In this document: piece after piece, positions 27,204-43,119 of the stretch | How the letters are laid out: the number at the start of each line of letters is the position of its first letter | Numbering within the stretch: the first letter of the stretch is position 1 | Origin: an uncultured Dehalococcoidia bacterium | Lineage (GTDB): Bacteria; Chloroflexota; Dehalococcoidia; Bin125 | Direction: 5' to 3' | Assembly (NCBI GenBank): GCA_964347635.1 | Contig: CAYFZI010000001.1 | Span: 29,322-93,321 of the forward strand | DNA: 64,000 nt | Made by a program: the position numbers and the translations under genes | The notes under the pieces: model-generated | The model's input: the letters and a program-made list of their open reading frames with translations, nothing else | What the model was told of the DNA's origin: nothing | Databases searched by the model: none

Positions 27204-27806
27204 TCAGTTGGCGGCGAACTGGCCGATGTTTTCGTGCCCCAGCGCGTCGTTGTTGGGGTCGATCAGCTCATCCGGCAGCGGCAGTGTTTGCAGCCAGGCC
27301 CAGACGTCGGCGATGTCTTCGACCGGGATCTGCTCAGCGGTGAAGCGCTGCATGACACCGCGCGGACGGCGGTATTGGCTGAGTACGCCGTGGATGTCGA
27401 GCCCCGTTTGGGCGATGGTCGGCCCGACGATCCCTTCGCCGACGTCGCCGTGGCAGACCTGACAGCCGTTTGCGATAAAGAGCTCGGCGCCGCGCACCGG
27501 GTTGGCGCCGGCCCGCATCGCTTCCTCATCGATCTCCTCGATTGGCAGCGGTGCGGCCTCGGCGCAGGTTTCCGGCGAGCGGTCGACCAGTTCGAGCGAC
27601 GGGTCGGCCTCCTGGCCGGCCTCGATGCAGAAGAGGCCGGTGGCCCACAGCTCGGCGGTCGCCGCGTTGGACTCGACTCGCCCGCCCAGCTCGTGCCGGT
27701 CGGCGCCTTTGGCGATCGCATAGCCGACCAGCGCGAAGATGCCGGCGATCAGCAGCCCGAAGACCATCAACAGCCCGAACGATTGAGGAATTCCCTGGGT
27801 TGGCAT
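27204..27806 (-). CDS. Membrane-anchored c-type cytochrome
   Basis: N-terminal TM helix and a single haem-binding CQVCH motif. Confidence 0.75.
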   Translation of the reverse strand: MPTQGIPQSFGLLMVFGLLIAGIFALVGYAIAKGADRHELGGRVESNAATAELWATGLFCIEAGQEADPSLELVDRSPETCAEAAPLPIEEIDEEAMRAGANPVRGAELFIANGCQVCHGDVGEGIVGPTIAQTGLDIHGVLSQYRRPRGVMQRFTAEQIPVEDIADVWAWLQTLPLPDELIDPNNDALGHENIGQFAAN

Positions 27807-28822: not shown

Positions 28823-29734
28823 TTACGGTACGGCTCCGCGTGTGCGGGCGACGGCGGCGGCGAGCGCCGCTGCATCCGCCGCGCCCGTCAGCCGTTCGCG
28901 GTAGACGCCGCTGCGGTCGATCAGCAGCAGCTCCGGCAGGCCGTCGATGCGGTAGTGGACGGCCGCGGCCGCCTCGCGGTCGATCACGCTGGGGATGCCC
29001 AACGCGGCTTCGACAAAGGCCCGCGCGGCTGCGCCCGGTGCGTCGTAGACGTTGATCGCCAGCACGGCCAGATCGCCCTCGGCGCCGCCAAGGCGGCGCC
29101 ATAGCTCGTCGAGCTGCCGCAGCAGCTCGAGATCACCCGTGTTCCAGGAGGCCCAGAAGACCAGCACGACCGTCTTGCCCCGGAAGTCGGAGAGCGCCGC
29201 GCTCCCTTCGCCTTCCAACCGCGGCAGCGTGAAGTTGGGCGCCGGCTGGCCGCGCTGCAGCCGCGCCGCGCCCGCTTCGATGCTGGGCGGGATCTGGTCC
29301 GCTGCAGCCCGAATCGAGGCCGGCGAGCTGCGCAGCCAGCGATCGACGGCCGCCGCCTGCCAGCTGAAGAAGCGGCGCTCCGGCATGATCGTGCGCACCG
29401 CGCCGCCCAGCTGCACGGACAGCGCGACTTCGACTCGGCCGTCGGCGTTGCGCCGCACCCGCACCCGCAGCGAGGCTGCGCCGTGCTCCACCGCCGAGGA
29501 CTGCAGCCAGCGGTCAACGGGCGCCTGCGCGTAGGGGAAGAAGCGGGCGCGGGGGCAGCGCCGCTGCGACTCTTCGGTCAGCTCGAGGCAGAGCTCGACA
29601 CGGCCGTCCTGCGCTTTGCGGGCAGCGATGCGCACCTCGACGGTATCGCCCTGCGCGTCGACTGCGGCGCCGCCGAGCAGCGCGGCCAGCAGGCCGAGCA
29701 GCGCCGCCGCCAGCGCCAGCCGCGCCATGCTCAA
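28823..29734 (-). CDS. Secreted protein: 2x novel N-repeat + redox-inactive TlpA-like thioredoxin-fold domain
   Basis: Signal peptide, then two copies of the EVRIAARKAQDGRVELCLEL...FFPYAQAPVDRWLQSS repeat, homologous to the N-terminal domain of the 38683-42984 array. The C-terminal domain aligns to TlpA/ResA (PAPNFTLP...GKTVVLVFWASWNTGD...GLPELLLIDRSG), but the WCxxC active site is replaced by WNTGD. Confidence 0.7.
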   Translation of the reverse strand: MSMARLALAAALLGLLAALLGGAAVDAQGDTVEVRIAARKAQDGRVELCLELTEESQRRCPRARFFPYAQAPVDRWLQSSAVEHGAASLRVRVRRNADGRVEVALSVQLGGAVRTIMPERRFFSWQAAAVDRWLRSSPASIRAAADQIPPSIEAGAARLQRGQPAPNFTLPRLEGEGSAALSDFRGKTVVLVFWASWNTGDLELLRQLDELWRRLGGAEGDLAVLAINVYDAPGAAARAFVEAALGIPSVIDREAAAAVHYRIDGLPELLLIDRSGVYRERLTGAADAAALAAAVARTRGAVP

Positions 29735-30264
29735 GCGGGGTTCATCGAGAAGTTGTGGTTGCCCAGGAATGCGCCGGCCCCGGCCACCGCGATGGTCAGC
29801 AGCAGCCCCGTGATCGAGAGCACGATCGTCAGCCGCCGCACTCGGACCAACTCAGTGCTGTCATCGGCCGCGGCCGCGGCTTGCCGCGCCAGCTCGAGCT
29901 GGCGCGGGCCGAACACGAACTGGTGCAGCCCGATCGCCGCGATCATCGCCGCCCACAGCGCCATCTTCACGACAAAGATGATGCCCCAGCGGGCATCGTA
30001 GATCGATGCGCCGAAATTCTCCGCCTGGTCGAGCCGCGGGTCGACCATCGCGCCCCCGCTGACCACGATGATGATCATCGCTGCGATCCCGAGCCGGCCG
30101 AAGCGCCGCGTGAAACCCTCCATCACATGGAGCCAAAACTCGCGGTCGCCCGCGGCGCGCAGCGCGGGAACCACCGCCGCGGCGGTCAGCACCTGGCCGC
30201 CCAGCCAGACCGCGACAGCGATCACGTGCAGCCAGATCAGGATCGAAAGCACTGACTCCGACAT
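29731..30264 (-). CDS. CopD-like / DUF2269-like integral membrane protein
   Basis: Four TM helices. The stop overlaps the downstream start (ATGA). Start is ambiguous between ATG 30264 (GGAG 9 nt upstream) and GTG 30273. Confidence 0.55.
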   Translation of the reverse strand: MSESVLSILIWLHVIAVAVWLGGQVLTAAAVVPALRAAGDREFWLHVMEGFTRRFGRLGIAAMIIIVVSGGAMVDPRLDQAENFGASIYDARWGIIFVVKMALWAAMIAAIGLHQFVFGPRQLELARQAAAAADDSTELVRVRRLTIVLSITGLLLTIAVAGAGAFLGNHNFSMNPA

Positions 30265-30314
30265 CGCCAACACTCCGCTCGAGAAGGCCCTGAGAAGGTT
30301 ATCCGAGCGCCGCG

Positions 30315-35320: not shown

Positions 35321-36520
35321 ATGAGTCGAACCCCGGTGCCCCACAGCGAGTGGCTCGAGGCCGCGGAAGCAGTTGGGCCGACCCTGCGCGGGCATGCCGA
35401 GCAGAACGAGCAGCTGCGCCGCCTGGCCCCGCCCGTGGTCGAGGCGCTGCGTGCTGCGCGGTTGTTCTCGATCTTCGCGCCGACCGAGGTTGGCGGCGGC
35501 AACCTCGATCCCGCTGGGCACCTCGAGGTCATCGCGGCGCTGACAGCGCACGACGGCTCGGCCGGCTGGTGCGCGATGATCGGCGCGCACGAATCGGCCT
35601 GGCTCGGCGCGCGTCTGCCCGAGTCCGGCATCGAGCGCGTCTTTGGCGCCGCGCAGTGGCCGATCACAGCAGGGCAGCCCTTTCCCGGCGGCGAAGCGCG
35701 GCCCGCGCCGGGCGGCTGGCGGCTCAGCGGACGCTGGGGCTGGGGCTCCGGCATCCACCACGCCGATTGGGTGATAGCGCAGGCGCGGATCGTCGATGGA
35801 CCTGGCGCAGAGCCAGGTGCAGAAACAGGCGCGGCCGAGAGCGAGGCGGGGCCGCCTGAACTGCTCACCGCCGTTGTCCCGCGCGCGCAGGTCGAAATCG
35901 AGGACACCTGGCATGTCGCCGGGATGCAGGGCACAGGCAGCAGCCACTACCGGCTCGAAGACGAATTCGTCAGCGCGGATTTTCGCCTGCAGCCCTTTGA
36001 GCAGCCGCCCCTGCGCGGCTCCGGCTGGGTCGCGCGGCCGACCCTCACCTTCCTCTGCCCGGCAGCCTTCGGGATCGCGCTGGGGCTGGCGGAGCGCGCG
36101 ATCGAGGAAGCGGCGGCGCTCGCCGCGACGCGTGTGCGGCTCGGCGCGCGCGCGCCGCTGGCCGAGCGCGAGCTCTTCCAGCGCGAGCTGGGCGAGCTGG
36201 CCGCAACCGCGCGCGCGATCCGCGGGCACGGCCTCGAGCTCTTCCGCGGGCTGGCTGAGGCGCCCGTGCGCAGCGTCTCCGACGCCGTGCAGATGGACGA
36301 CACCGCACGCAGCGCCGCCGCCTGGGCGACGCGCAGCGCCGAGTCGGTCGTGCGCACCGCCCACCGCGCCGCCGGCGGCGACGCCGTCTTCCTCGATCAC
36401 CCCCTCCAGCGCCTGCTGCGCGATGTGCAGACCGCCTCCCAGCATGTGGTCGTTTCCGACAACGCCTTCCAGCGCCTCGGCCGCCACACGCTCGGCCTGC
36501 CGGTGCGGCCCGGCCTGTGA
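35321..36520 (+). CDS. Acyl-CoA-dehydrogenase-like flavin-dependent monooxygenase/hydroxylase (group D), paralog 1
   Basis: ACAD type-2 fold without the CoA-thioester catalytic base pattern. TWHVAGMQGTGSSHYRLEDEFV is typical of HsaA/DszC/HpaB-like two-component monooxygenase oxygenases. Confidence 0.7.
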   Translation: MSRTPVPHSEWLEAAEAVGPTLRGHAEQNEQLRRLAPPVVEALRAARLFSIFAPTEVGGGNLDPAGHLEVIAALTAHDGSAGWCAMIGAHESAWLGARLPESGIERVFGAAQWPITAGQPFPGGEARPAPGGWRLSGRWGWGSGIHHADWVIAQARIVDGPGAEPGAETGAAESEAGPPELLTAVVPRAQVEIEDTWHVAGMQGTGSSHYRLEDEFVSADFRLQPFEQPPLRGSGWVARPTLTFLCPAAFGIALGLAERAIEEAAALAATRVRLGARAPLAERELFQRELGELAATARAIRGHGLELFRGLAEAPVRSVSDAVQMDDTARSAAAWATRSAESVVRTAHRAAGGDAVFLDHPLQRLLRDVQTASQHVVVSDNAFQRLGRHTLGLPVRPGL

Positions 36521-36582: not shown

Positions 36583-37116
36583 ATGCGCACTGCACTCGAG
36601 GTCGCTAAGTACTTTCTCAGCCTCGCCGCTGAACAGGGCGACGAGCTGAGTCAGCTGAAGCTGCAGAAACTCTGTTACTACGCGCAGGGCTACAACCTGG
36701 CGATGCGCGGCCAGCCGCTGTTCGACGACCCGATTGAGGCATGGGAGAAAGGCCCGGTCGTGCGGGGCCTGCGGCGTCATTTCGGGCCTCACGGTGAGAA
36801 CCCCATCCCTGCCGATCCGACGTTTGACCGAGAGGAGGCCTGCGGCGTTCGGGAAAGCGCGCTGCTGCACGCCGTCTACCGCGAGTTCCGCGCTGCGAGC
36901 GGCTCCGATCTCGTGACCGCGACTCACGGCGAACGGCCGTGGCAAGAGGCGCGCCAGAATGATGCGAACCTCTGCACCAATACCATGCGCGACCACTTCC
37001 TGCAGCGGCTTGAGTGCTCCGAGCGGCCCGCGCCGGTCTACCGATACTCACTGGAAGAGTCCTTGGCGCGCTCTGCAGCCGATATCGCCGCAGGCCGCTA
37101 CCGGCCGCTTCGGTGA
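36583..37116 (+). CDS. Panacea (DUF4065) domain protein, SocA/PanA antitoxin-like
   Basis: MRTALEVAKYFLSLAAEQGDELSQLKLQKLCYYAQGYNLAMRGQPLFDDPIEAWEKGPVV matches the Panacea domain signature. GAGGAG RBS. Sits between the two monooxygenase paralogs. Confidence 0.7.
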   Translation: MRTALEVAKYFLSLAAEQGDELSQLKLQKLCYYAQGYNLAMRGQPLFDDPIEAWEKGPVVRGLRRHFGPHGENPIPADPTFDREEACGVRESALLHAVYREFRAASGSDLVTATHGERPWQEARQNDANLCTNTMRDHFLQRLECSERPAPVYRYSLEESLARSAADIAAGRYRPLR

Positions 37117-37453: not shown

Positions 37454-38641
37454 GTGAGCCGAACGACTCCGCAGCGCCGGCGCGAGCGCAGCGACTGGCT
37501 CGGCCGCGCTGAGGCGATCCATTCGACCCTGCGCGGGCACGCCGCCGAATCGATTCAGCTGCGCACCCTCGCGCCCGCCTCGGTCGATGCGCTGGAGGCG
37601 AGCGGCATCTTCGCCGTCTCCGGCCCCGAGGAAGTGAACGGCTTCGCCGTTCATCCGACAACGCAGCTGGAGCTGTTCGCCGAGCTTGCGCGCGCCGATG
37701 TCTCAGCCGCCTGGTGCGCGATGATTCAGGCGCAAACGACCGGCCTGGCCGCAGCCCACTTGCAGGACGGTGAACCACTCGACACCGTTTTCGGACCGTC
37801 CTACCCGCGCACCGCCGGCACCGCGAATCCGGAGGGCGAAGGGCTGCCCTGCGCGGGCGGGCATCGGCTCTCGGGGCGCTGGTCGTTCGCCAGCGGGATC
37901 CGCCACTGCGGTTGGGTGCTGGCCAATGTGCGCCTGCTCGACGCCGACGGCCAGCCGCGCCGGCTGGAGAGCGGGGCGCCGCGCATCACAGCGGTCGCCG
38001 TGCCGACCAGCGAGCTGGATATTGAAGACAGCTGGCACGTGATGGGGCTCGAAGGCACCGGCAGCTCGCATTACCGCATGCACGATCTGTTCGTGCCCAG
38101 CGAGTTCGAGCTGCCCTTCGGCGGGCCCAACCCGCGGCGCGGCAGCGCCTGGTTTGATGTGCCCACGATCACCTTCCTCAGCCCCGGCCACGCCACGATC
38201 CCGCTCGGCGCGGCGGAGCGCGCGCTCGAGCTGCTGCGCGAGGCTGCGACGCGGGTGCGCTTCGGGACCAGCACCTCGATCGGCGCGCGCGGCGCCTTTC
38301 AGCGCGATTTCGGGGTCGCCTCGCACCGCTGCGAAGCGGCCCGCGCCCACGCGGTCGACGTGCTCGACGGCGCTATGGCGCAGCGCGAGCGCGGCGAACC
38401 GATCACGCCGGCCGACGACGCCCGCATCCGCGGCATGGTCGCTTGGGTCACCGACACCTGCCTCGAGGTGGTGCGGTTCGCCCACCACAGCCTCGGCGGC
38501 GCGGCCGCCTTCCGCGAACACCCGCTGCAGCAGATCCTGCGCGATCTCAGCGCCGCCGCGCAGCACATGTTCGTCGCCGACACCGCCTACGAGCGCAGCG
38601 GCGCGCTGCGCCTCGGCCAGCGCCCGCCCGGCGCGCTCTAG
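37454..38641 (+). CDS. Acyl-CoA-dehydrogenase-like flavin-dependent monooxygenase/hydroxylase, paralog 2
   Basis: Homologous to 35321-36520 from the N-terminus (VSRTTPQRRRERSDWL vs MSRTPVPHSEWL; SWHVMGLEGTGSSHYRMHDLFV). GTG start. Confidence 0.7.
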   Translation: MSRTTPQRRRERSDWLGRAEAIHSTLRGHAAESIQLRTLAPASVDALEASGIFAVSGPEEVNGFAVHPTTQLELFAELARADVSAAWCAMIQAQTTGLAAAHLQDGEPLDTVFGPSYPRTAGTANPEGEGLPCAGGHRLSGRWSFASGIRHCGWVLANVRLLDADGQPRRLESGAPRITAVAVPTSELDIEDSWHVMGLEGTGSSHYRMHDLFVPSEFELPFGGPNPRRGSAWFDVPTITFLSPGHATIPLGAAERALELLREAATRVRFGTSTSIGARGAFQRDFGVASHRCEAARAHAVDVLDGAMAQRERGEPITPADDARIRGMVAWVTDTCLEVVRFAHHSLGGAAAFREHPLQQILRDLSAAAQHMFVADTAYERSGALRLGQRPPGAL

Positions 38642-38682: not shown

Positions 38683-39678
38683 TCAGTAGTGGCCGCAGCG
38701 CGCGATGTTCTGCTGCAGCGGCGAGTCGAACAGCCCCAAGATCTCGAAGAACACTGTGAACCGCTCGCCGCGGATCTCGACGTGCATCCGCACATCCGAA
38801 GCGCCGCGCAGCTGTCCTGCGAATGCGCGCGGCGCGTCAGAGCTCACCGCGCCGCGGGGTTCCTCGGGGCCGCCGTGGATGTGCCATTTCGCTGAGCTGA
38901 GCGCTCCGCCGTCCACCGCCCAGAACACGGACGCCTCCGGAAACTCGACCTCGCCCAGCGGCGGCAGCCAGTACAGCTGCGCTATGAACTCCCGGTTGCT
39001 GCAGATCAAGGCCAGCCGGGCCCGCTCGTGCCCCTCGACGCCGGTCTTCTCGGAGATCACAGCGACGATCGTTGTCAGGTCCCTCTGCCCTCCGTCGTAG
39101 ACGGTGCCGTAGAGGATGCCGTCGGCCGTGGCGTCGCTGTCGACCGCGATCGGCTTGAACGCCGGGTCGACGGTCGTCGCCCACCAGGATTCCGCTGCTG
39201 CTGCGGCGGGGTCGAACTGCAGCGCGATCGGCGACGTCCGCAGCCAGCGGAAGTGCCTCGTATTGGAGGGGAAGTAGCGCCTGGGGGGCAGCATCAGCGC
39301 GCTCCACCAACCGTCGTTCCGGAGCTGCTGGAGGCCGAATTCCACGCGCCCGCCGCCGTCCCGCCGCATCGCGATTCGCACCTCGGTGATCGAGACGCTG
39401 CCGCCGCTCTCGATCCGCAGCTGGATCGGCGTGCCCTTATACCAGCGCGCGTGCGCCGCGTCTGCCCCAAACAGCCAGGTGCCGTGCTCCTCGTAGCTGC
39501 CCCAGGCGCCCCCGGCGCCGCGCCGCTGCAACCCCAATTCATAGCCGCCGCCAATGTGGTTGCGTGCGGCGACCCGAACCTCCAGCTCCAGCGGTGCGGC
39601 CGCCGCGCGCTCCGCAAGCGCCGCCGCAGCAAGCGCCGACAGCAGCACAAACACGGCCAGCAGTACGGCCTGCCCCAT
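38683..39678 (-). CDS. Novel secreted paralog A: signal peptide + 2x N-repeat + C-domain ending CGHY
   Basis: Signal peptide MGQAVLLAVFVLLSALAAAALA. Two N-repeats: EVRVAARNHIGGGYELGLQRRGAGGAWG... and EVRIAMRRDGGGRVEFGLQQLRNDGWW...RRYFPSNTRHFRWLRTSPIAL. The C-terminal domain (LTTIVAVIS...LICSNRE...FEILGLFDSPLQQNIARCGHY) is shared with the three upstream genes. Confidence 0.75.
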   Translation of the reverse strand: MGQAVLLAVFVLLSALAAAALAERAAAAPLELEVRVAARNHIGGGYELGLQRRGAGGAWGSYEEHGTWLFGADAAHARWYKGTPIQLRIESGGSVSITEVRIAMRRDGGGRVEFGLQQLRNDGWWSALMLPPRRYFPSNTRHFRWLRTSPIALQFDPAAAAAESWWATTVDPAFKPIAVDSDATADGILYGTVYDGGQRDLTTIVAVISEKTGVEGHERARLALICSNREFIAQLYWLPPLGEVEFPEASVFWAVDGGALSSAKWHIHGGPEEPRGAVSSDAPRAFAGQLRGASDVRMHVEIRGERFTVFFEILGLFDSPLQQNIARCGHY

Positions 39679-39806
39679 CCGCAGTACAGCTCCAACAGCC
39701 CTAGGCCTGCACGCACGCATCGGCGCACTCCTATTCAAGCTCACAGCCAGGCAGCGCCCTACCCTACCGCGCCTGCGCAGCGCGGCGGCGCGCCTATTTC
39801 CTGTCG

Positions 39807-40829
39807 TCAGTACTCGCCGCAGCGATCGAGGTTGGGCTGTATGGGGGTGTCGAAGAGGCGGGCGACCGCGAACTCGAATGTTTCGAGGTCGCCGTCGTTG
39901 TCGCGGCCGCGGATCACGACCGTTTCAGCGTTGCGCAGCTGTTCCGCAAAACCGCGGTCATCGGGCGGGCTGGCCGCGGTGCTGAGGTTGCCGTCATCGA
40001 CGATCTCCCATTTCGCCGCGACCGCGTCTGCTTGGTTAATCCGATACTCCATGTCGAGTTCCCGCTCCAAAAACGTGAACGGCATGCCGGTCACGACGAC
40101 CTGAAAATCACCCTCGAAACAACCGAGCAGGAGCATTGCGGGCTCGATTTCGAACGAACTGGCCTCAGTGTGCCGGACGCTGATCAGGCTGGTCAGAGCG
40201 TCGTCGATCGGGTCGCGGGTGGTTGTGTAGAAGACATACTCGCCGAGTTGTGTAACGCTCTCGTCCTCGTAGGGGGCGAACGCTTCGTCCTCCTCGGATC
40301 CCGCCGCATCTTCTGCATCCTGAGCCGCTGCTGCTTCGTCTTGCTCCCCATCCTGCTCATCGGCCCCCGGCAGCGGGTCGCCGGCGGCCCAGTCTGCAGG
40401 CGGTATCAGAATCTCGCGGCCGATATTGAGGATAGTGTCGAGCTCCAGATCCTCATTGAAGGCGAGCAGATTGTTGATGTCGACGCTGTACCGCCGGGCG
40501 AGCCGATAGAGCGTGTCGCCGGCGCTGACGGTGTGCACGGCGGCGGGCTGTATCGGTTCGGGCTGGGGCTGTTCCTGCTGAACGGCCGCGTCCGCCTGCC
40601 CGCCCGCATCCTCGGCAGCAGGCTGCGGCTGCTCCTCCGCGGGTTGAGCCTGTTCCTGCGGTTCGGGCTGCGGCTCCGGCGCGGGGCGCTGCGACTCGAT
40701 CCGCGTCTGCTCAGCGCCGTTCTGCTCCTCATCGTCGCCGCTCCTGCCGACGATCACCACCAGAGCAACAAAGCCGACCAGCAAGAGCAGCCCGATCGCC
40801 GCGATGATGCCGAGGCAGCCCTGCGCCAT
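39807..40829 (-). CDS. Novel paralog B: TM anchor + Pro/Gln/Glu-rich linker + LysM domain + C-domain ending CGEY
   Basis: N-terminal TM helix (IIAAIGLLLLVGFVALVVIV). LysM (HTVSAGDTLYRLARRYSVDINNLLAFNEDLELDTILNIGREILIPP). C-domain (LTSLISVRHTE...LLLGCFEG...FAVARLFDTPIQPNLDRCGEY). Its ATG overlaps the upstream gene's stop as TGATG. Confidence 0.78.
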   Translation of the reverse strand: MAQGCLGIIAAIGLLLLVGFVALVVIVGRSGDDEEQNGAEQTRIESQRPAPEPQPEPQEQAQPAEEQPQPAAEDAGGQADAAVQQEQPQPEPIQPAAVHTVSAGDTLYRLARRYSVDINNLLAFNEDLELDTILNIGREILIPPADWAAGDPLPGADEQDGEQDEAAAAQDAEDAAGSEEDEAFAPYEDESVTQLGEYVFYTTTRDPIDDALTSLISVRHTEASSFEIEPAMLLLGCFEGDFQVVVTGMPFTFLERELDMEYRINQADAVAAKWEIVDDGNLSTAASPPDDRGFAEQLRNAETVVIRGRDNDGDLETFEFAVARLFDTPIQPNLDRCGEY

Positions 40830-42040
40830 CAGTACTGCCCGCAGTAGTCCAAATTGGCCTGAACCGGCGTCTCAAACAGGCCCGCCAGCGGCAACTGTAT
40901 GTGCTGGCTGCCGCTGCCTGGGTTGATGTGGAATTCGAGCACGCGCGCTTGGCGCAGCTGCGCGATGAACGCAGCGTCGTCATCCGGGCTGATCCCTGAC
41001 TCTACCGAGAAGACAAACATCCAACGATGCGTGGTCGCTGCTCGACCGTCAAGTCGAACACTCGTAACTGGCGTACTTTCTATCTCGGTGATCCAGAGCC
41101 AGAGCGCGCTGTCATTGAGAATGATATCAAGCCGATCGACGTCACAGATCATGTGCAGTGTGCCACTGCCTCTTCTGAGAGTGACGCCTGTGGTCAGGGC
41201 TGTTGGATCCAGATGCGGGCTCACCCAGTATTCGATATCGATGAAGACGAGACCGTTTGTCTCGCCCAAGAGGGCAACCCCTCCAGGTGTGGAACGTCCG
41301 CAGTAGTCGATGTTCGGCTGGGCCGGCGTAGTGAAAAGCCCGGCCAAATCTATCGTCGCACCGCCAGAGCTCCCTCCTCCGAATTGAACGGTCAGCGTCT
41401 GTGAACGCTTGAGCCGTTCCACAAACGTCGCATCGTCGTCGGGGCTGTACCCAGAGGTGGCACCGCGGTAGGAGCGCCAATTGACAGTTTCGATTTCGCC
41501 CCCGTCGAAGCGCAGCAAGATCACTTCACCGTCGCCGTAGAAAAACCGATAGTCCCAGTCAACCAATACATCAAACTTGCCTTGGGCGCAGACCAGTTCA
41601 ATCGAAAAATCGTTGGCATGCGTGCGGACGATGGTGGTGAGCGTGTCGCTCAGGGGGTCGCGCTCGACTTCGTACCAGAGATCCGCTTCGCCCGTGCCGA
41701 TCGTCTCTCTGGCGGGTTTCCAGCCCGCCGGCGGATTCGGCCCCGGCTGCGGGCGCGCCGCAACAGGCGCCGGCGCCGGCGCGCCGACTGTGAGCGGCGA
41801 GCTGTTCAGCCAGCGATCATGGTCGATTTCGGCGGGGAGGTAGCGGGCTTGCGGGAGTTGGCGCTCGCCCCAGTCGCCGCCGCCGTGGCGCTGCTGCAGG
41901 CCGAACTCAGTGCGACCGTCGTCGAGGCGCCGGACGCTGATCCGAACCTCGGTGTCCCCCTCCACAGCGCGGACTGTGAGCGTCGCGATGCCGGCGATCA
42001 GCGCCAGCACCACCAAGCCGATGACGCTGTTCCTGGCCAT
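40829..42040 (-). CDS. Novel paralog C: signal/anchor + N-repeat + Pro-rich linker + 2x C-domain (ending YCGRS / YCGQY)
   Basis: MARNSVIGLVVLALIAGIATLTVRAVEGDTEVRISVRRLDDGRTEFGLQQRHGGGDWGERQLPQARYLPAEIDHDRWLNSSPLTV. Two tandem C-domains: ...LTTIVRTHANDFSIELVCAQG...DLAGLFTTPAQPNIDYCGRS and ...HMICDVDRL...LPLAGLFETPVQANLDYCGQY. Confidence 0.78.
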   Translation of the reverse strand: MARNSVIGLVVLALIAGIATLTVRAVEGDTEVRISVRRLDDGRTEFGLQQRHGGGDWGERQLPQARYLPAEIDHDRWLNSSPLTVGAPAPAPVAARPQPGPNPPAGWKPARETIGTGEADLWYEVERDPLSDTLTTIVRTHANDFSIELVCAQGKFDVLVDWDYRFFYGDGEVILLRFDGGEIETVNWRSYRGATSGYSPDDDATFVERLKRSQTLTVQFGGGSSGGATIDLAGLFTTPAQPNIDYCGRSTPGGVALLGETNGLVFIDIEYWVSPHLDPTALTTGVTLRRGSGTLHMICDVDRLDIILNDSALWLWITEIESTPVTSVRLDGRAATTHRWMFVFSVESGISPDDDAAFIAQLRQARVLEFHINPGSGSQHIQLPLAGLFETPVQANLDYCGQY

Positions 42041-42174
42041 AGCCCGCGCCTTTCCAGCAGCTCACTCGCCGAATGGAGGAGGCAAGCGGGAAAGCTACAG
42101 CCCGAAAGCTGCGCGATCAACCGCCGCCGTGCTCTGCATTGCCGCCGCCCGGATGAACGCGGGGCGGCCTTGGC

Positions 42175-42984
42175 TCAATTGGCGCCCGCAGTGCTCTGCC
42201 CGCAGTTAAGAAGGTTGCGGTGCACCGGAGTCTCAAGCAGGCCTTCAATGTCCAGCGTGATTGGGCTGGGAGATCTCGACCACAATCTGATCGTGAGTGT
42301 GGAGCGGCCCCGCAAGCTGTTCAGAAATGGCCCGGCATCGCTTGGCCCATAACCTGCAGTGCCTATGGCCGGCCATGTGCTCTGCTGCAACGGGCCGTCG
42401 TCAATGCGCCACTCAACCTCTTGGGTGCCGCTGACGTAGTACCAGTCGTCATCGGCTACATACACACGCAGTCGGTCGCTGCACAAGATTATCAACTCGA
42501 GCGGATCCTCCAGAAATCCAGGGCCAGGGTCTTCCTCACTAGTCCGAACTATGGTGCTCACCGTGCCATCAAACGGATCTCGGGATACGAAGAATCGAAT
42601 ATTCTCGCTGGTCTCTCCACCGGCCCACACCAGCCCTTCCGTCGGCAGTAGGGAGATGCCCCCTTCCAGCAAATGGCCGTGGATCGCGGAGGCCGCGCTG
42701 TCGGCCGTCAGCTCATCCTCGGCGGGGCCCAGCGTGAGCGGTGAGCTGTTCAGCCAGCGATCGTGGTTGACTTCGGCGGGGAGGTAGCGGGCTCGCGGGA
42801 ATTGGCGCTCGCCCCAGTCGCCGCCGCCGTAGCGCTGCTGCAGGCCGAACTCGGTGCGGCCGTCGTCGAGGCGCCGGACGGTGATCCGAACCTCGGTGTC
42901 CCCCTCCACAGCGTGGACTGTGATCGTCGCGATGCTGGCGATCAGCGCCAGCGCGAGCAAACCGATGACGCTGTTCTTAACCAT
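42175..42984 (-). CDS. Novel paralog D: signal/anchor + N-repeat + C-domain (ending NCGQS)
   Basis: MVKNSVIGLLALALIASIATITVHAVEGDTEVRITVRRLDDGRTEFGLQQRYGGGDWGERQFPRARYLPAEVNHDRWLNSSPLTL is ~90% identical to the N-terminus of C. The C-domain is ...VSTIVRTSEED...LIILCSDRL...DIEGLLETPVHRNLLNCGQSTAGAN. ATG at 42984. Confidence 0.75.
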   Translation of the reverse strand: MVKNSVIGLLALALIASIATITVHAVEGDTEVRITVRRLDDGRTEFGLQQRYGGGDWGERQFPRARYLPAEVNHDRWLNSSPLTLGPAEDELTADSAASAIHGHLLEGGISLLPTEGLVWAGGETSENIRFFVSRDPFDGTVSTIVRTSEEDPGPGFLEDPLELIILCSDRLRVYVADDDWYYVSGTQEVEWRIDDGPLQQSTWPAIGTAGYGPSDAGPFLNSLRGRSTLTIRLWSRSPSPITLDIEGLLETPVHRNLLNCGQSTAGAN

Positions 42985-43119
42985 ATTTTGTGTTCTCTCA
43001 ACCGTTCGCACGCCGAATCGCAGGCGGCAAGCGGGAAAGCTACAGCCCGAAAGTTGCGCGATCAACCGCCGCCGGCGCAGCGAGCAGGAGGGGCGCTGGG
43101 GCGCGGCGCGCCTGCGCTG

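What the first reader, a model, noticed from the sequence alone, without database searches (positions are those of the whole stretch)
41800..42040. Novel ~55-aa N-terminal repeat EVRI..RRLDDGR.EFGLQQR..GG.WG...P.ARY.P....DRWL.SSP, present in three array genes and at a distant fifth locus
Paralogs C and D each begin, after the signal peptide, with one copy of this motif. Paralog A has two diverged copies (EVRVAARNHIGGGYELGLQRRGAGGAWG... and EVRIAMRRDGGGRVEFGLQQLRNDGWW...RRYFPSNTRHFRWLRTSPIAL). The protein at 28823-29734, ~9 kb away, has two more (EVRIAARKAQDGRVELCLEL...RARFFPYAQAPVDRWLQSS and RVRVRRNADGRVEVALSVQL...RRFFSWQAAAVDRWLRSSP). The conserved Arg/Asp/Trp positions and the invariant DRWL.SSP end indicate a real folded module. 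It is combined with the C-domain, with LysM (in B, in place of the N-repeat) or with a thioredoxin fold. This is classic domain shuffling in a cell-envelope protein family. I do not recognise the motif.
Basis: seen in the sequence. Interest (0 to 1): 0.8.

Follow-up and report, generated by a model that had tools for sequence, protein, structure and literature searches.

The report
Undescribed surface module of sponge-symbiont proteins
The repeat is a real, previously uncatalogued ~58-residue all-beta protein module that sits just after the signal peptide of hundreds of secreted proteins in sponge-associated Chloroflexota and Actinomycetota, probably to hold varied "eukaryotic-like" domains at the cell surface.

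Summary
Six copies (not seven) of a ~58-aa module occur in four minus-strand genes: A (2), C (1), D (1) and the distant E (2). An HMM built only from non-window proteins scores them at 38-99 bits; the next best window hit has E=1.5. The module is not confined to this genome: an exhaustive profile search found 1,628 cluster representatives (50% identity). It usually occurs as an adjacent tandem pair right after a signal peptide. Partners include RCC1 propellers, LRR, trypsin-like proteases, ankyrin, fn3, cadherin, SLH and thioredoxin folds. Genome hits are all MAGs of Dehalococcoidia and Acidimicrobiia; every MAG whose origin I could trace comes from marine sponges. No Pfam or NCBIfam model matches. 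A high-confidence AlphaFold2 pair model (pLDDT 95) has no significant solved structural relative. The module is under stronger purifying selection than the domains it carries. In relatives, the window's C-terminal domain is instead attached by a transmembrane helix, a lipoprotein signal or LysM. I therefore infer a surface-retention or binding module; the ligand is unknown. Binding to the sponge host is the main rival. This is a new domain family within a familiar logic, modular anchoring of secreted proteins.

The parts
41780..41959 (-). N-module copy in gene C (the finding's own copy): GDTEVRISVRRLDDGRTEFGLQQRHGGGDWGERQLPQARYLPAEIDHDRWLNSSPLTVGA
   Evidence: 99.1 bits, E=4.9e-30 with an HMM built from non-window proteins; aligned.
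41960..42040 (-). Signal peptide of gene C (MARNSVIGLVVLALIAGIATLTVRAVE), ending 1-3 residues before the module
   Evidence: Read directly from the sequence. 120 of 130 N-terminal architectures in homologs have a hydrophobic segment ending a median of 8.5 aa before the module. No signal-peptide predictor was run.
42724..42903 (-). N-module copy in gene D
   Evidence: 96.7 bits, E=2.8e-29.
39214..39393 (-). N-module copy 2 of gene A
   Evidence: 69.5 bits, E=8.8e-21.
39412..39591 (-). N-module copy 1 of gene A (diverged; lacks the LP..R.FP motif)
   Evidence: 37.6 bits, E=8.3e-11.
29477..29650 (-). N-module copy 1 of gene E
   Evidence: 61.1 bits, E=3.7e-18; part of the AlphaFold2 pair model with pLDDT 95.
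29306..29482 (-). N-module copy 2 of gene E
   Evidence: 45.0 bits, E=4e-13; part of the pair model.
38683..39744 (-). Gene A: signal peptide + 2 modules + C-domain ending CGHY (databases call it from 39720, 345 aa = P0019)
39807..40829 (-). Gene B: N-terminal transmembrane helix + acidic/Pro-rich linker + LysM (about 40401-40535) + C-domain ending CGEY; no N-module
   Evidence: Pfam LysM E=6.7e-10; C-domain HMM hit.
40829..42040 (-). Gene C: signal peptide + 1 module + two C-domains (about 41306-41725 and 40832-41305)
42175..42984 (-). Gene D: signal peptide + 1 module + one C-domain (about 42193-42648)
   Evidence: (P0154, 100% identical). AlphaFold2 gives the C-domain pLDDT >=90.
28823..29734 (-). 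Gene E: signal peptide + 2 modules + TlpA/ResA-like thioredoxin fold (about 28886-29254) lacking both active-site cysteines
41783..42041 (-). 259-nt cassette (signal peptide + module) shared with 42727-42985 at 91% identity; similarity ends at the last module codon
42727..42985 (-). Second copy of the 259-nt cassette (gene D)
42077..42129 (-). 53-nt conserved element upstream of gene C (96% identical to 43022-43074 upstream of gene D); presumed shared regulatory or 5'-UTR element
   Evidence: function not tested.
43022..43074 (-). Second copy of the 53-nt upstream element (gene D)

Best explanation
The repeat is a genuine, undescribed ~58-residue all-beta extracytoplasmic protein module.

Shown:
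- It is exported. It lies immediately after an N-terminal signal peptide, or less often at the C-terminus.
- It normally occurs as two directly adjacent copies, which AlphaFold2 predicts to pack into one compact unit.
- It is fused to very diverse passenger domains.
- It is more strongly conserved than its passengers.
- It moves between genes as a DNA cassette.
- It is abundant in MAGs of Dehalococcoidia and Acidimicrobiia, including MAGs from marine sponges.

Inferred: it acts as a surface-retention or anchoring module. The pair (or a dimer of single-copy proteins such as C and D) would bind a component of the bacterium's own envelope, probably a glycopolymer or S-layer-type structure, through its conserved Arg, Trp and aromatic positions. 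This would keep the passenger domain displayed at the cell surface. In the window it displays an IalB-like, disulfide-containing C-domain (genes A, C, D) and a redox-dead thioredoxin fold (gene E). Paralog B reaches the same end with a transmembrane helix plus LysM. The ligand is unknown.
For: Real and widespread:
- 1,628 representatives at E<=1e-3 and 1,202 at <=1e-10.
- Independent HMM scores of 38-99 bits in the window.
- 101 confirmed loci in GTDB species-representative genomes, all Dehalococcoidia, Acidimicrobiia or unclassified MAGs.

Fold: pair model pLDDT 95, pTM 0.86.

Exported: 120 of 130 N-terminal architectures have a hydrophobic leader ending a median of 8.5 aa before the module.

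Pair as the unit:
- 130 of the top 150 proteins have 2 copies and 15 have 4, mostly -2 to 13 aa apart.
- Within-protein copy identity has a median of 0.80, against 0.53 between proteins, with no distinct first-copy and second-copy classes.
- In the full-length D model the lone copy is only partly confident: its second half has pLDDT <50.

Anchor logic: the same C-domain occurs behind four alternative N-termini:
- TM helix + linker (P0186-P0194).
- A lipobox-like signal, LALSAC (P0197, P0198, P0201).
- TM + LysM (window B).
- Signal peptide + module (window A, C, D; P0199-P0203).

Constraint, window vs syntenic ortholog L082:
- D module: 5 synonymous and 0 nonsynonymous changes, against omega 0.52 for the rest of D.
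- C module: omega 0.055, against 0.26 for the rest of C.

Cassette behaviour: a 259-nt block at 91% identity between C and D ends exactly at the module boundary.

Passengers are surface or adhesion types: RCC1 in 23 of 106, LRR in 9, trypsin in 7, plus Ank, fn3, cadherin, Calx-beta and Big domains.
Against: - No binding data and no identified ligand; the anchoring role rests on architectural analogy only.
- The two host phyla have different envelopes, and a module shared by both fits a common external (host) ligand as well as, or better than, a lineage-specific wall polymer.
- Two of 106 proteins also carry SLH domains, and some proteins have pairs at both ends. This would be redundant for a pure anchor.
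- Short proteins consisting of a signal peptide plus the module alone exist (P0002; 29 'short' among the top 150), although many may be gene fragments.
- The low confidence of the lone copy in the D model may only reflect a shallower alignment (32 rows against 61).
- The top-150 list is biased towards multi-copy proteins, because scores add up over copies.
Confidence: 0.5

Rival explanations
1. Host-directed binding module. The pair is a lectin- or adhesin-like unit that binds a sponge component (matrix glycan, collagen/spongin or a cell-surface receptor). It targets or tethers 'eukaryotic-like' passenger domains to host structures, as part of a symbiosis toolkit exchanged horizontally among sponge symbionts.
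For: - All genome hits are in two unrelated phyla. Every MAG whose provenance could be traced is from sponges: the APA_bin and SB06xx_bin naming schemes (Aplysina aerophoba and Ircinia ramosa; PMC11706023) and jk18x bins (Caribbean Ircinia; PMC9531527). These account for 16 of 75 loci.
- Cross-phylum identity to the window copy (60-64% in Acidimicrobiales) is close to within-phylum identity (68%).
- Partners are the classes described as enriched in sponge symbionts: ANK, LRR, fn3 and cadherin.
- Stand-alone module proteins exist.
Against: - The module is interchangeable with a TM helix, a lipoprotein signal and LysM on the same passenger, which points to attachment to the producer cell rather than to the host.
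- The provenance of most MAGs (the chromosome-level isolates with UUID names) could not be verified.
- Absence from free-living relatives was not tested.
- The genome scan used a single sub-family pattern.
Confidence: 0.3
2. Self-association or scaffold module. The copies mediate dimerisation or lattice formation, for example incorporation into an S-layer-like surface array, rather than binding a non-protein ligand.
For: - Pairs predominate, and the copies within a protein are kept similar to each other.
- The lone copy is modelled with low confidence.
Against: - Foldseek finds nothing.
- The invariant Arg and Trp positions are not typical of a purely hydrophobic dimer interface (inference).
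- No multimer prediction could be run.
Confidence: 0.12
3. Sorting or secretion tag recognised by a dedicated export, processing or covalent-attachment system.
For: The module starts within a few residues of the predicted signal-peptidase site in most proteins.
Against: - Fourteen of 150 proteins carry it at the C-terminus or internally.
- No conserved secretion or sortase-type neighbour was seen in the window, L001, L002 or L082, but this was not tested systematically.
- A 58-aa tandem folded domain is unlike known sorting signals.
Confidence: 0.05
4. Chance similarity, or recent duplicates confined to this genome.
For: C and D share a 91%-identical DNA cassette, so part of the within-window similarity is indeed recent.
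Against: - 1,628 representatives elsewhere, in two phyla.
- The independent HMM gives E down to 5e-30, against 0.1 for the reversed control.
- The orthologous array is conserved in a second genome under purifying selection.
Confidence: 0.01

Closest known systems
LysM (PF01476) and other non-covalent cell-wall-binding modules used in tandem (SLH triplets, CWB2 triplets)
   Same: - A small extracytoplasmic module placed next to the signal peptide or at a terminus.
- Used in tandem copies and fused to many unrelated passenger domains.
- In the window it occupies the architectural slot that LysM fills in paralog B.
   Different: - No sequence match to any of these families.
- All-beta and ~58 aa, whereas LysM is a ~44-aa beta-alpha-alpha-beta fold and SLH is helical (established knowledge).
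- The unit is a pair rather than a triplet.
- The ligand is unknown.
Eukaryotic-like proteins (ELPs) of sponge symbionts (ANK, LRR, fn3, cadherin, WD40 classes; PMC11706023, PMC9531527)
   Same: - The module is fused to these same repeat classes, plus RCC1 propellers.
- It is found in sponge-derived MAGs.
   Different: - The module itself is not one of the described ELP domains and has no eukaryotic match in Pfam.
- It would be the bacterial delivery or display part of such proteins, which the papers I read do not describe.
[not shown]
   Same: All-beta; 93-96 of the pair's 115 residues can be superposed.
   Different: - Foldseek gives no hit at E<=1e-3 and a best TM-score of 0.33.
- This is not evidence of homology.
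IalB (invasion-associated locus B; Bartonella henselae 3dtd), relevant to the partner C-domain and not to the module
   Different: 7% identity; no Pfam IalB hit on any window protein; the two invariant cysteines and the C-terminal TPVQPN.D.CG.Y motif are specific to this family.

Membership tests
Any Pfam-A / NCBIfam family (the module) | Sequence match above the curated threshold | tested here: not met
   No hit on the module in the five window proteins, in 106 homologous proteins, or in 61 tandem pairs at E<=10. The most frequent family there was DUF1214, in 3 of 61, which I treat as noise.
Any solved structure (the module) | Significant sequence or fold similarity to a PDB chain | tested here: not met
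   [not shown]
LysM | PF01476 match; ~44-aa beta-alpha-alpha-beta fold | tested here: not met
   The module has no LysM hit and is predicted to be all-beta. Only paralog B carries a true LysM (E=6.7e-10).
SLH domain | PF00395 match, usually three tandem copies | tested here: not met
   No SLH hit on the module. SLH occurs as a separate domain in 2 of 106 module proteins.
Cell-surface anchoring module (functional class) | Binds a component of the producer's envelope | not testable with these tools
   Only architectural evidence is available: interchange with a TM helix, a lipobox and LysM on the same passenger.
Cell-surface anchoring module (functional class) | Extracytoplasmic location | tested here: met
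   Hydrophobic leaders in 120 of 130 N-terminal architectures. The partner C-domain has two invariant cysteines. This rests on a heuristic, not on a signal-peptide predictor.
Sponge-symbiont-specific gene family | Present in sponge-associated genomes and absent from free-living relatives | tested here: inconclusive
   Presence in sponge MAGs is shown: 16 of 75 loci are from MAG series tied to sponges by papers. The provenance of the other MAGs could not be verified, and absence from free-living relatives was not tested.
TlpA/ResA thiol-disulfide oxidoreductases (gene E's C-terminal domain) | Thioredoxin fold with a WCxxC active site | tested here: not met
   The fold matches (ResA NF002854 E=1.4e-13; 3hdc E=1.7e-16), but the active-site position reads WNTGD against WCPYC in 3hdc. 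Both cysteines are replaced.
IalB family (partner C-domain) | PF06776 sequence match | tested here: not met
   [not shown]

The most novel reading that the evidence does not exclude
The module is a habitat-specific, horizontally exchanged symbiosis device. It would be a previously unrecognised fold that sponge-associated Chloroflexota and Actinomycetota use to display or deliver their eukaryotic-like proteins (RCC1, LRR, ANK, cadherin, fn3) to the sponge host. It would do so by binding a host matrix or cell-surface ligand, and it would be absent from free-living relatives. That would make it a sequence marker for the host-interaction surface proteome of sponge symbionts.
Probability: 0.3. Interest if true: 0.8.

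Novelty: new variant of a known kind. Interest (0 to 1): 0.62.

Why it matters
Sponge symbionts are uncultured. How their many "eukaryotic-like" repeat proteins are exported, displayed and brought into contact with the host is not explained in the papers I read.

A conserved module that precedes these domains in hundreds of protein clusters from two phyla offers several things:
- A concrete handle: a profile HMM that picks out the surface or secreted interaction proteome of these bacteria.
- A small, confidently modelled domain that can be expressed and tested for binding.
- A candidate new fold for structure determination.

It would also fill a gap in domain databases, since about 1,600 protein clusters currently carry no annotation over this region.

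Tried and rejected
- The word-indexed homolog search with the six copies returned only 3 short proteins. The exhaustive profile search was needed.
A narrower alignment, A5, worked, but it samples only the [DNS]GR[VTI]EFGLQ sub-family.
- The exact look-up of protein C failed. The grounds are that the closest full-length relative with a name is a Chloroflexota MAG protein (MDE2892685.1), and that single-copy module + C-domain architectures are typical of the Dehalococcoidia loci.
- The AFDB50 fold library was unavailable.
- Searching papers for the motif strings found nothing.
- Searches for the accession numbers of the chromosome-level MAGs, and for the sample IDs SAMN12291591, PANK22, SRP338948 and ERZ21848999, also found nothing.
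- Ongoing gene conversion between C and D was rejected: informative sites favour orthology with L082 by 16 to 2, so the shared cassette predates the split of the two genomes.

Full report
**1. What is in the window**

Four minus-strand genes form an array:
- A: 38683-39744
- B: 39807-40829
- C: 40829-42040
- D: 42175-42984

A fifth gene, E (28823-29734), lies about 9 kb away. The finding's coordinates (41800-42040) cover the signal peptide and the first domain of gene C.

A regular-expression scan of all six frames, and later HMM scans, find exactly six copies of the motif. There is one each in C and D and two each in A and E, and none elsewhere.

An HMM built only from 302 copies in non-window proteins scores the six at 37.6-99.1 bits (E 8e-11 to 5e-30). 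The next best window hit has E=1.5, and the best hit on reversed sequences has E=0.1. Only R6, R10, G15, E18, L21, R49 and W50 are invariant among the six, so "DRWL.SSP" is common but not invariant.

Paralog B has a transmembrane helix, a long acidic/Pro-rich linker and a LysM domain (PF01476, E=6.7e-10) in place of the module. E carries a ResA/TlpA-like thioredoxin fold.

**2. It is a large family, not a local duplication**

A word-indexed search found only three short metagenomic proteins. Their contigs already showed the module in other contexts. L002 has three adjacent genes: module pair + M23-like peptidase, module pair + RCC1-like repeats, and a stand-alone copy.

The exhaustive HMMER search of 1.84 billion cluster representatives gave 1,628 proteins at E<=1e-3, 1,202 at <=1e-10 and 306 at <=1e-30.

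Among the top 150 proteins:
- 130 have two copies, 15 have four, 4 have three and 1 has five.
- Copies are directly adjacent, mostly -2 to 13 residues apart.
- The module is N-terminal in 107, C-terminal in 12 and internal in 2; 29 proteins are short.

This list is biased towards multi-copy proteins, because scores add up over copies. In genome loci found through a single copy, ORFs with one near-complete copy are common in Dehalococcoidia (11 with one, 5 with two). Pairs dominate in Acidimicrobiia (17 with one, 62 with two, 1 with three).

A hydrophobic signal-type segment precedes the module in 120 of 130 N-terminal architectures, ending a median of 8.5 residues before it.

**3. Not a known domain**

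No Pfam-A or NCBIfam model matches the module in any of these:
- the window proteins;
- 106 full-length homologs;
- 61 isolated pairs at E<=10.

A profile search of all PDB sequences gives nothing better than E=1.2. The motif strings occur in no paper of the searchable library.

**4. Predicted structure**

AlphaFold2 on the tandem pair of gene E, with 61 aligned pairs, gives pLDDT 95 and pTM 0.86. The model is all-beta: each copy is a long hairpin plus short strands. The high pTM implies a defined packing of the two copies.
- Foldseek finds no hit at E<=1e-3, and the best query TM-score is 0.33.
- AFDB50 could not be searched.

In a full-length model of gene D, the C-domain is confident (pLDDT about 90-98). 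The lone module is only partly so: its first hairpin scores 77-79 and its second half scores below 50. This is consistent with a need for a second copy, but a shallower alignment could also explain it.

**5. Partners and architecture logic**

Pfam partners in 106 homologs:
- RCC1-type propellers: 23
- LRR: 9
- trypsin-like proteases: 7
- ankyrin: 3
- SLH, PD40, fn3, cadherin and Big_9 domains: 2 each
- Big_5, thioredoxin and CAP: 1 each

Large examples include the following:
- four modules + LRR
- Calx-beta + cadherin + four C-terminal modules
- pair + RCC1 propeller + pair
- three fn3 + pair

The window's own C-terminal domain has two invariant cysteines and ends in TPVQPN.D.CG.Y. It recurs in other Dehalococcoidia and Acidimicrobiales loci and in multi-copy proteins.

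In different proteins, that same C-domain follows four alternative N-termini:
- a transmembrane helix plus linker (P0186-P0194);
- a lipobox-like signal, LALSAC (P0197, P0198, P0201);
- a transmembrane helix plus LysM (window B);
- a signal peptide plus the module (window A, C, D; P0199-P0203).

This interchange with membrane, lipid and peptidoglycan anchors is the main basis for inferring a surface-retention role.

**6. Evolutionary behaviour**

A second genome (L082, a 282-kb contig) carries the same four-gene array in the same order with the same neighbours.

Between the two genomes:
- The module of D has 5 synonymous and 0 nonsynonymous changes, against omega=0.52 for the rest of D.
- The module of C has omega=0.055, against 0.26 for the rest of C.

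Within proteins, the two copies are much more alike (median 80%) than copies from different proteins (53%). In 50 of 119 proteins the partner copy is the closest relative of all, and there are no distinct first-copy and second-copy classes. Pairs are therefore generated or homogenised repeatedly.

In the window, C and D share a 259-nt block (41783-42041 and 42727-42985, 91% identity) covering the signal peptide and module, plus a 53-nt upstream element (96%). Similarity collapses at the last module codon: 72 of 86 residues are identical before it and 49 of 152 after it. Informative sites favour orthology with L082 by 16 to 2, so this cassette sharing predates the split of the two genomes. About 30 of 78 loci carry two or more adjacent module genes.

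**7. Who has it**

A pattern scan of one genome per GTDB species confirmed 101 stretches, of which 75 distinct loci are held. All are in MAGs labelled Dehalococcoidia (13 loci), Acidimicrobiia/-ales (56) or unclassified "bacterium" (6). There are many loci per genome, for example at least 12 in CBDCPC01 and at least 9 in OZ220687.

Sixteen loci come from MAG series that papers tie to sponges:
- APA_bin (Aplysina aerophoba) and SB06xx_bin (Ircinia ramosa) (PMC11706023);
- jk18x bins (Caribbean Ircinia) (PMC9531527).

This link rests on the naming scheme; the individual bins are not named in those texts. The provenance of the remaining chromosome-level MAGs could not be verified, and absence from free-living relatives was not tested.

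A Chloroflexota/Dehalococcoidia origin is inferred.

**8. Interpretation**

Shown: a real, exported, strongly constrained, promiscuous beta module. It usually works as a pair, it is absent from curated domain libraries, and it has no solved structural relative.

Inferred, at about 0.5: it retains passenger domains at the producer's surface by binding an envelope component.

The main rival, at about 0.3, is binding to a sponge host ligand. That rival is favoured by the distribution across two phyla, the shared habitat and the eukaryotic-like partners. The two readings are not mutually exclusive.

Self-association or a scaffold role (0.12) and a sorting tag (0.05) are less supported. Chance or local duplication is refuted.

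**9. Verdict**

The module is a new domain family operating within the familiar logic of modular anchoring and binding domains. It is noteworthy for its abundance, its apparently novel fold and its association with sponge-symbiont eukaryotic-like proteins.

Noticed in passing
window 28886-29254 (gene E, minus strand): The TlpA/ResA-like thioredoxin domain of E has WNTGD where homologs have the catalytic WCxxC (aligned to WCPYC of 3hdc). Both active-site cysteines are lost, so the fold is probably redox-inactive. E's start overlaps the stop of a CopD-family membrane protein gene (29731-30273), and a membrane-anchored cytochrome c gene lies nearby (27204-27806).
   Followed up: partly
window 42077-42129 and 43022-43074: A 53-nt element lies upstream of genes C and D. 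The two copies are 96% identical, which is more conserved than the adjacent coding cassette (91%). Each sits about 35-90 nt before the start codon. It could be a shared promoter, 5'-UTR or regulatory element; it has no copies upstream of A, B or E.
   Followed up: partly
[not shown]
   Followed up: partly
window 36583-37116 (+): A SocA/Panacea-domain protein (PF13274, E=2.5e-14; an antitoxin-type domain) lies between two Acyl-CoA_dh_2-type dehydrogenase paralogs (35321-36520 and 37454-38641). The arrangement is conserved in the syntenic locus L082. No toxin partner was looked for.
   Followed up: no
L002 657-3900: Three consecutive module-bearing genes in a metagenomic contig: pair + M23-like peptidase, pair + RCC1-like repeats, and an 84-aa signal peptide + single module. 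The last one overlaps the start of a 563-aa secreted protein, which may indicate a frameshift or a genuine stand-alone module.
   Followed up: partly
L001 5556-6168: In this long-read metagenome contig the module copies sit in different frames of overlapping ORFs. This suggests assembly indels or a pseudogene at the C-terminal end of a large secreted protein.
   Followed up: no
window 39807-40829 (gene B): Gene B has an unusually long acidic, Pro/Gln/Glu-rich low-complexity linker on both sides of LysM (about residues 30-95 and 150-185). C-domain relatives anchored only by a transmembrane helix (P0186-P0194) have similar linkers.
   Followed up: no
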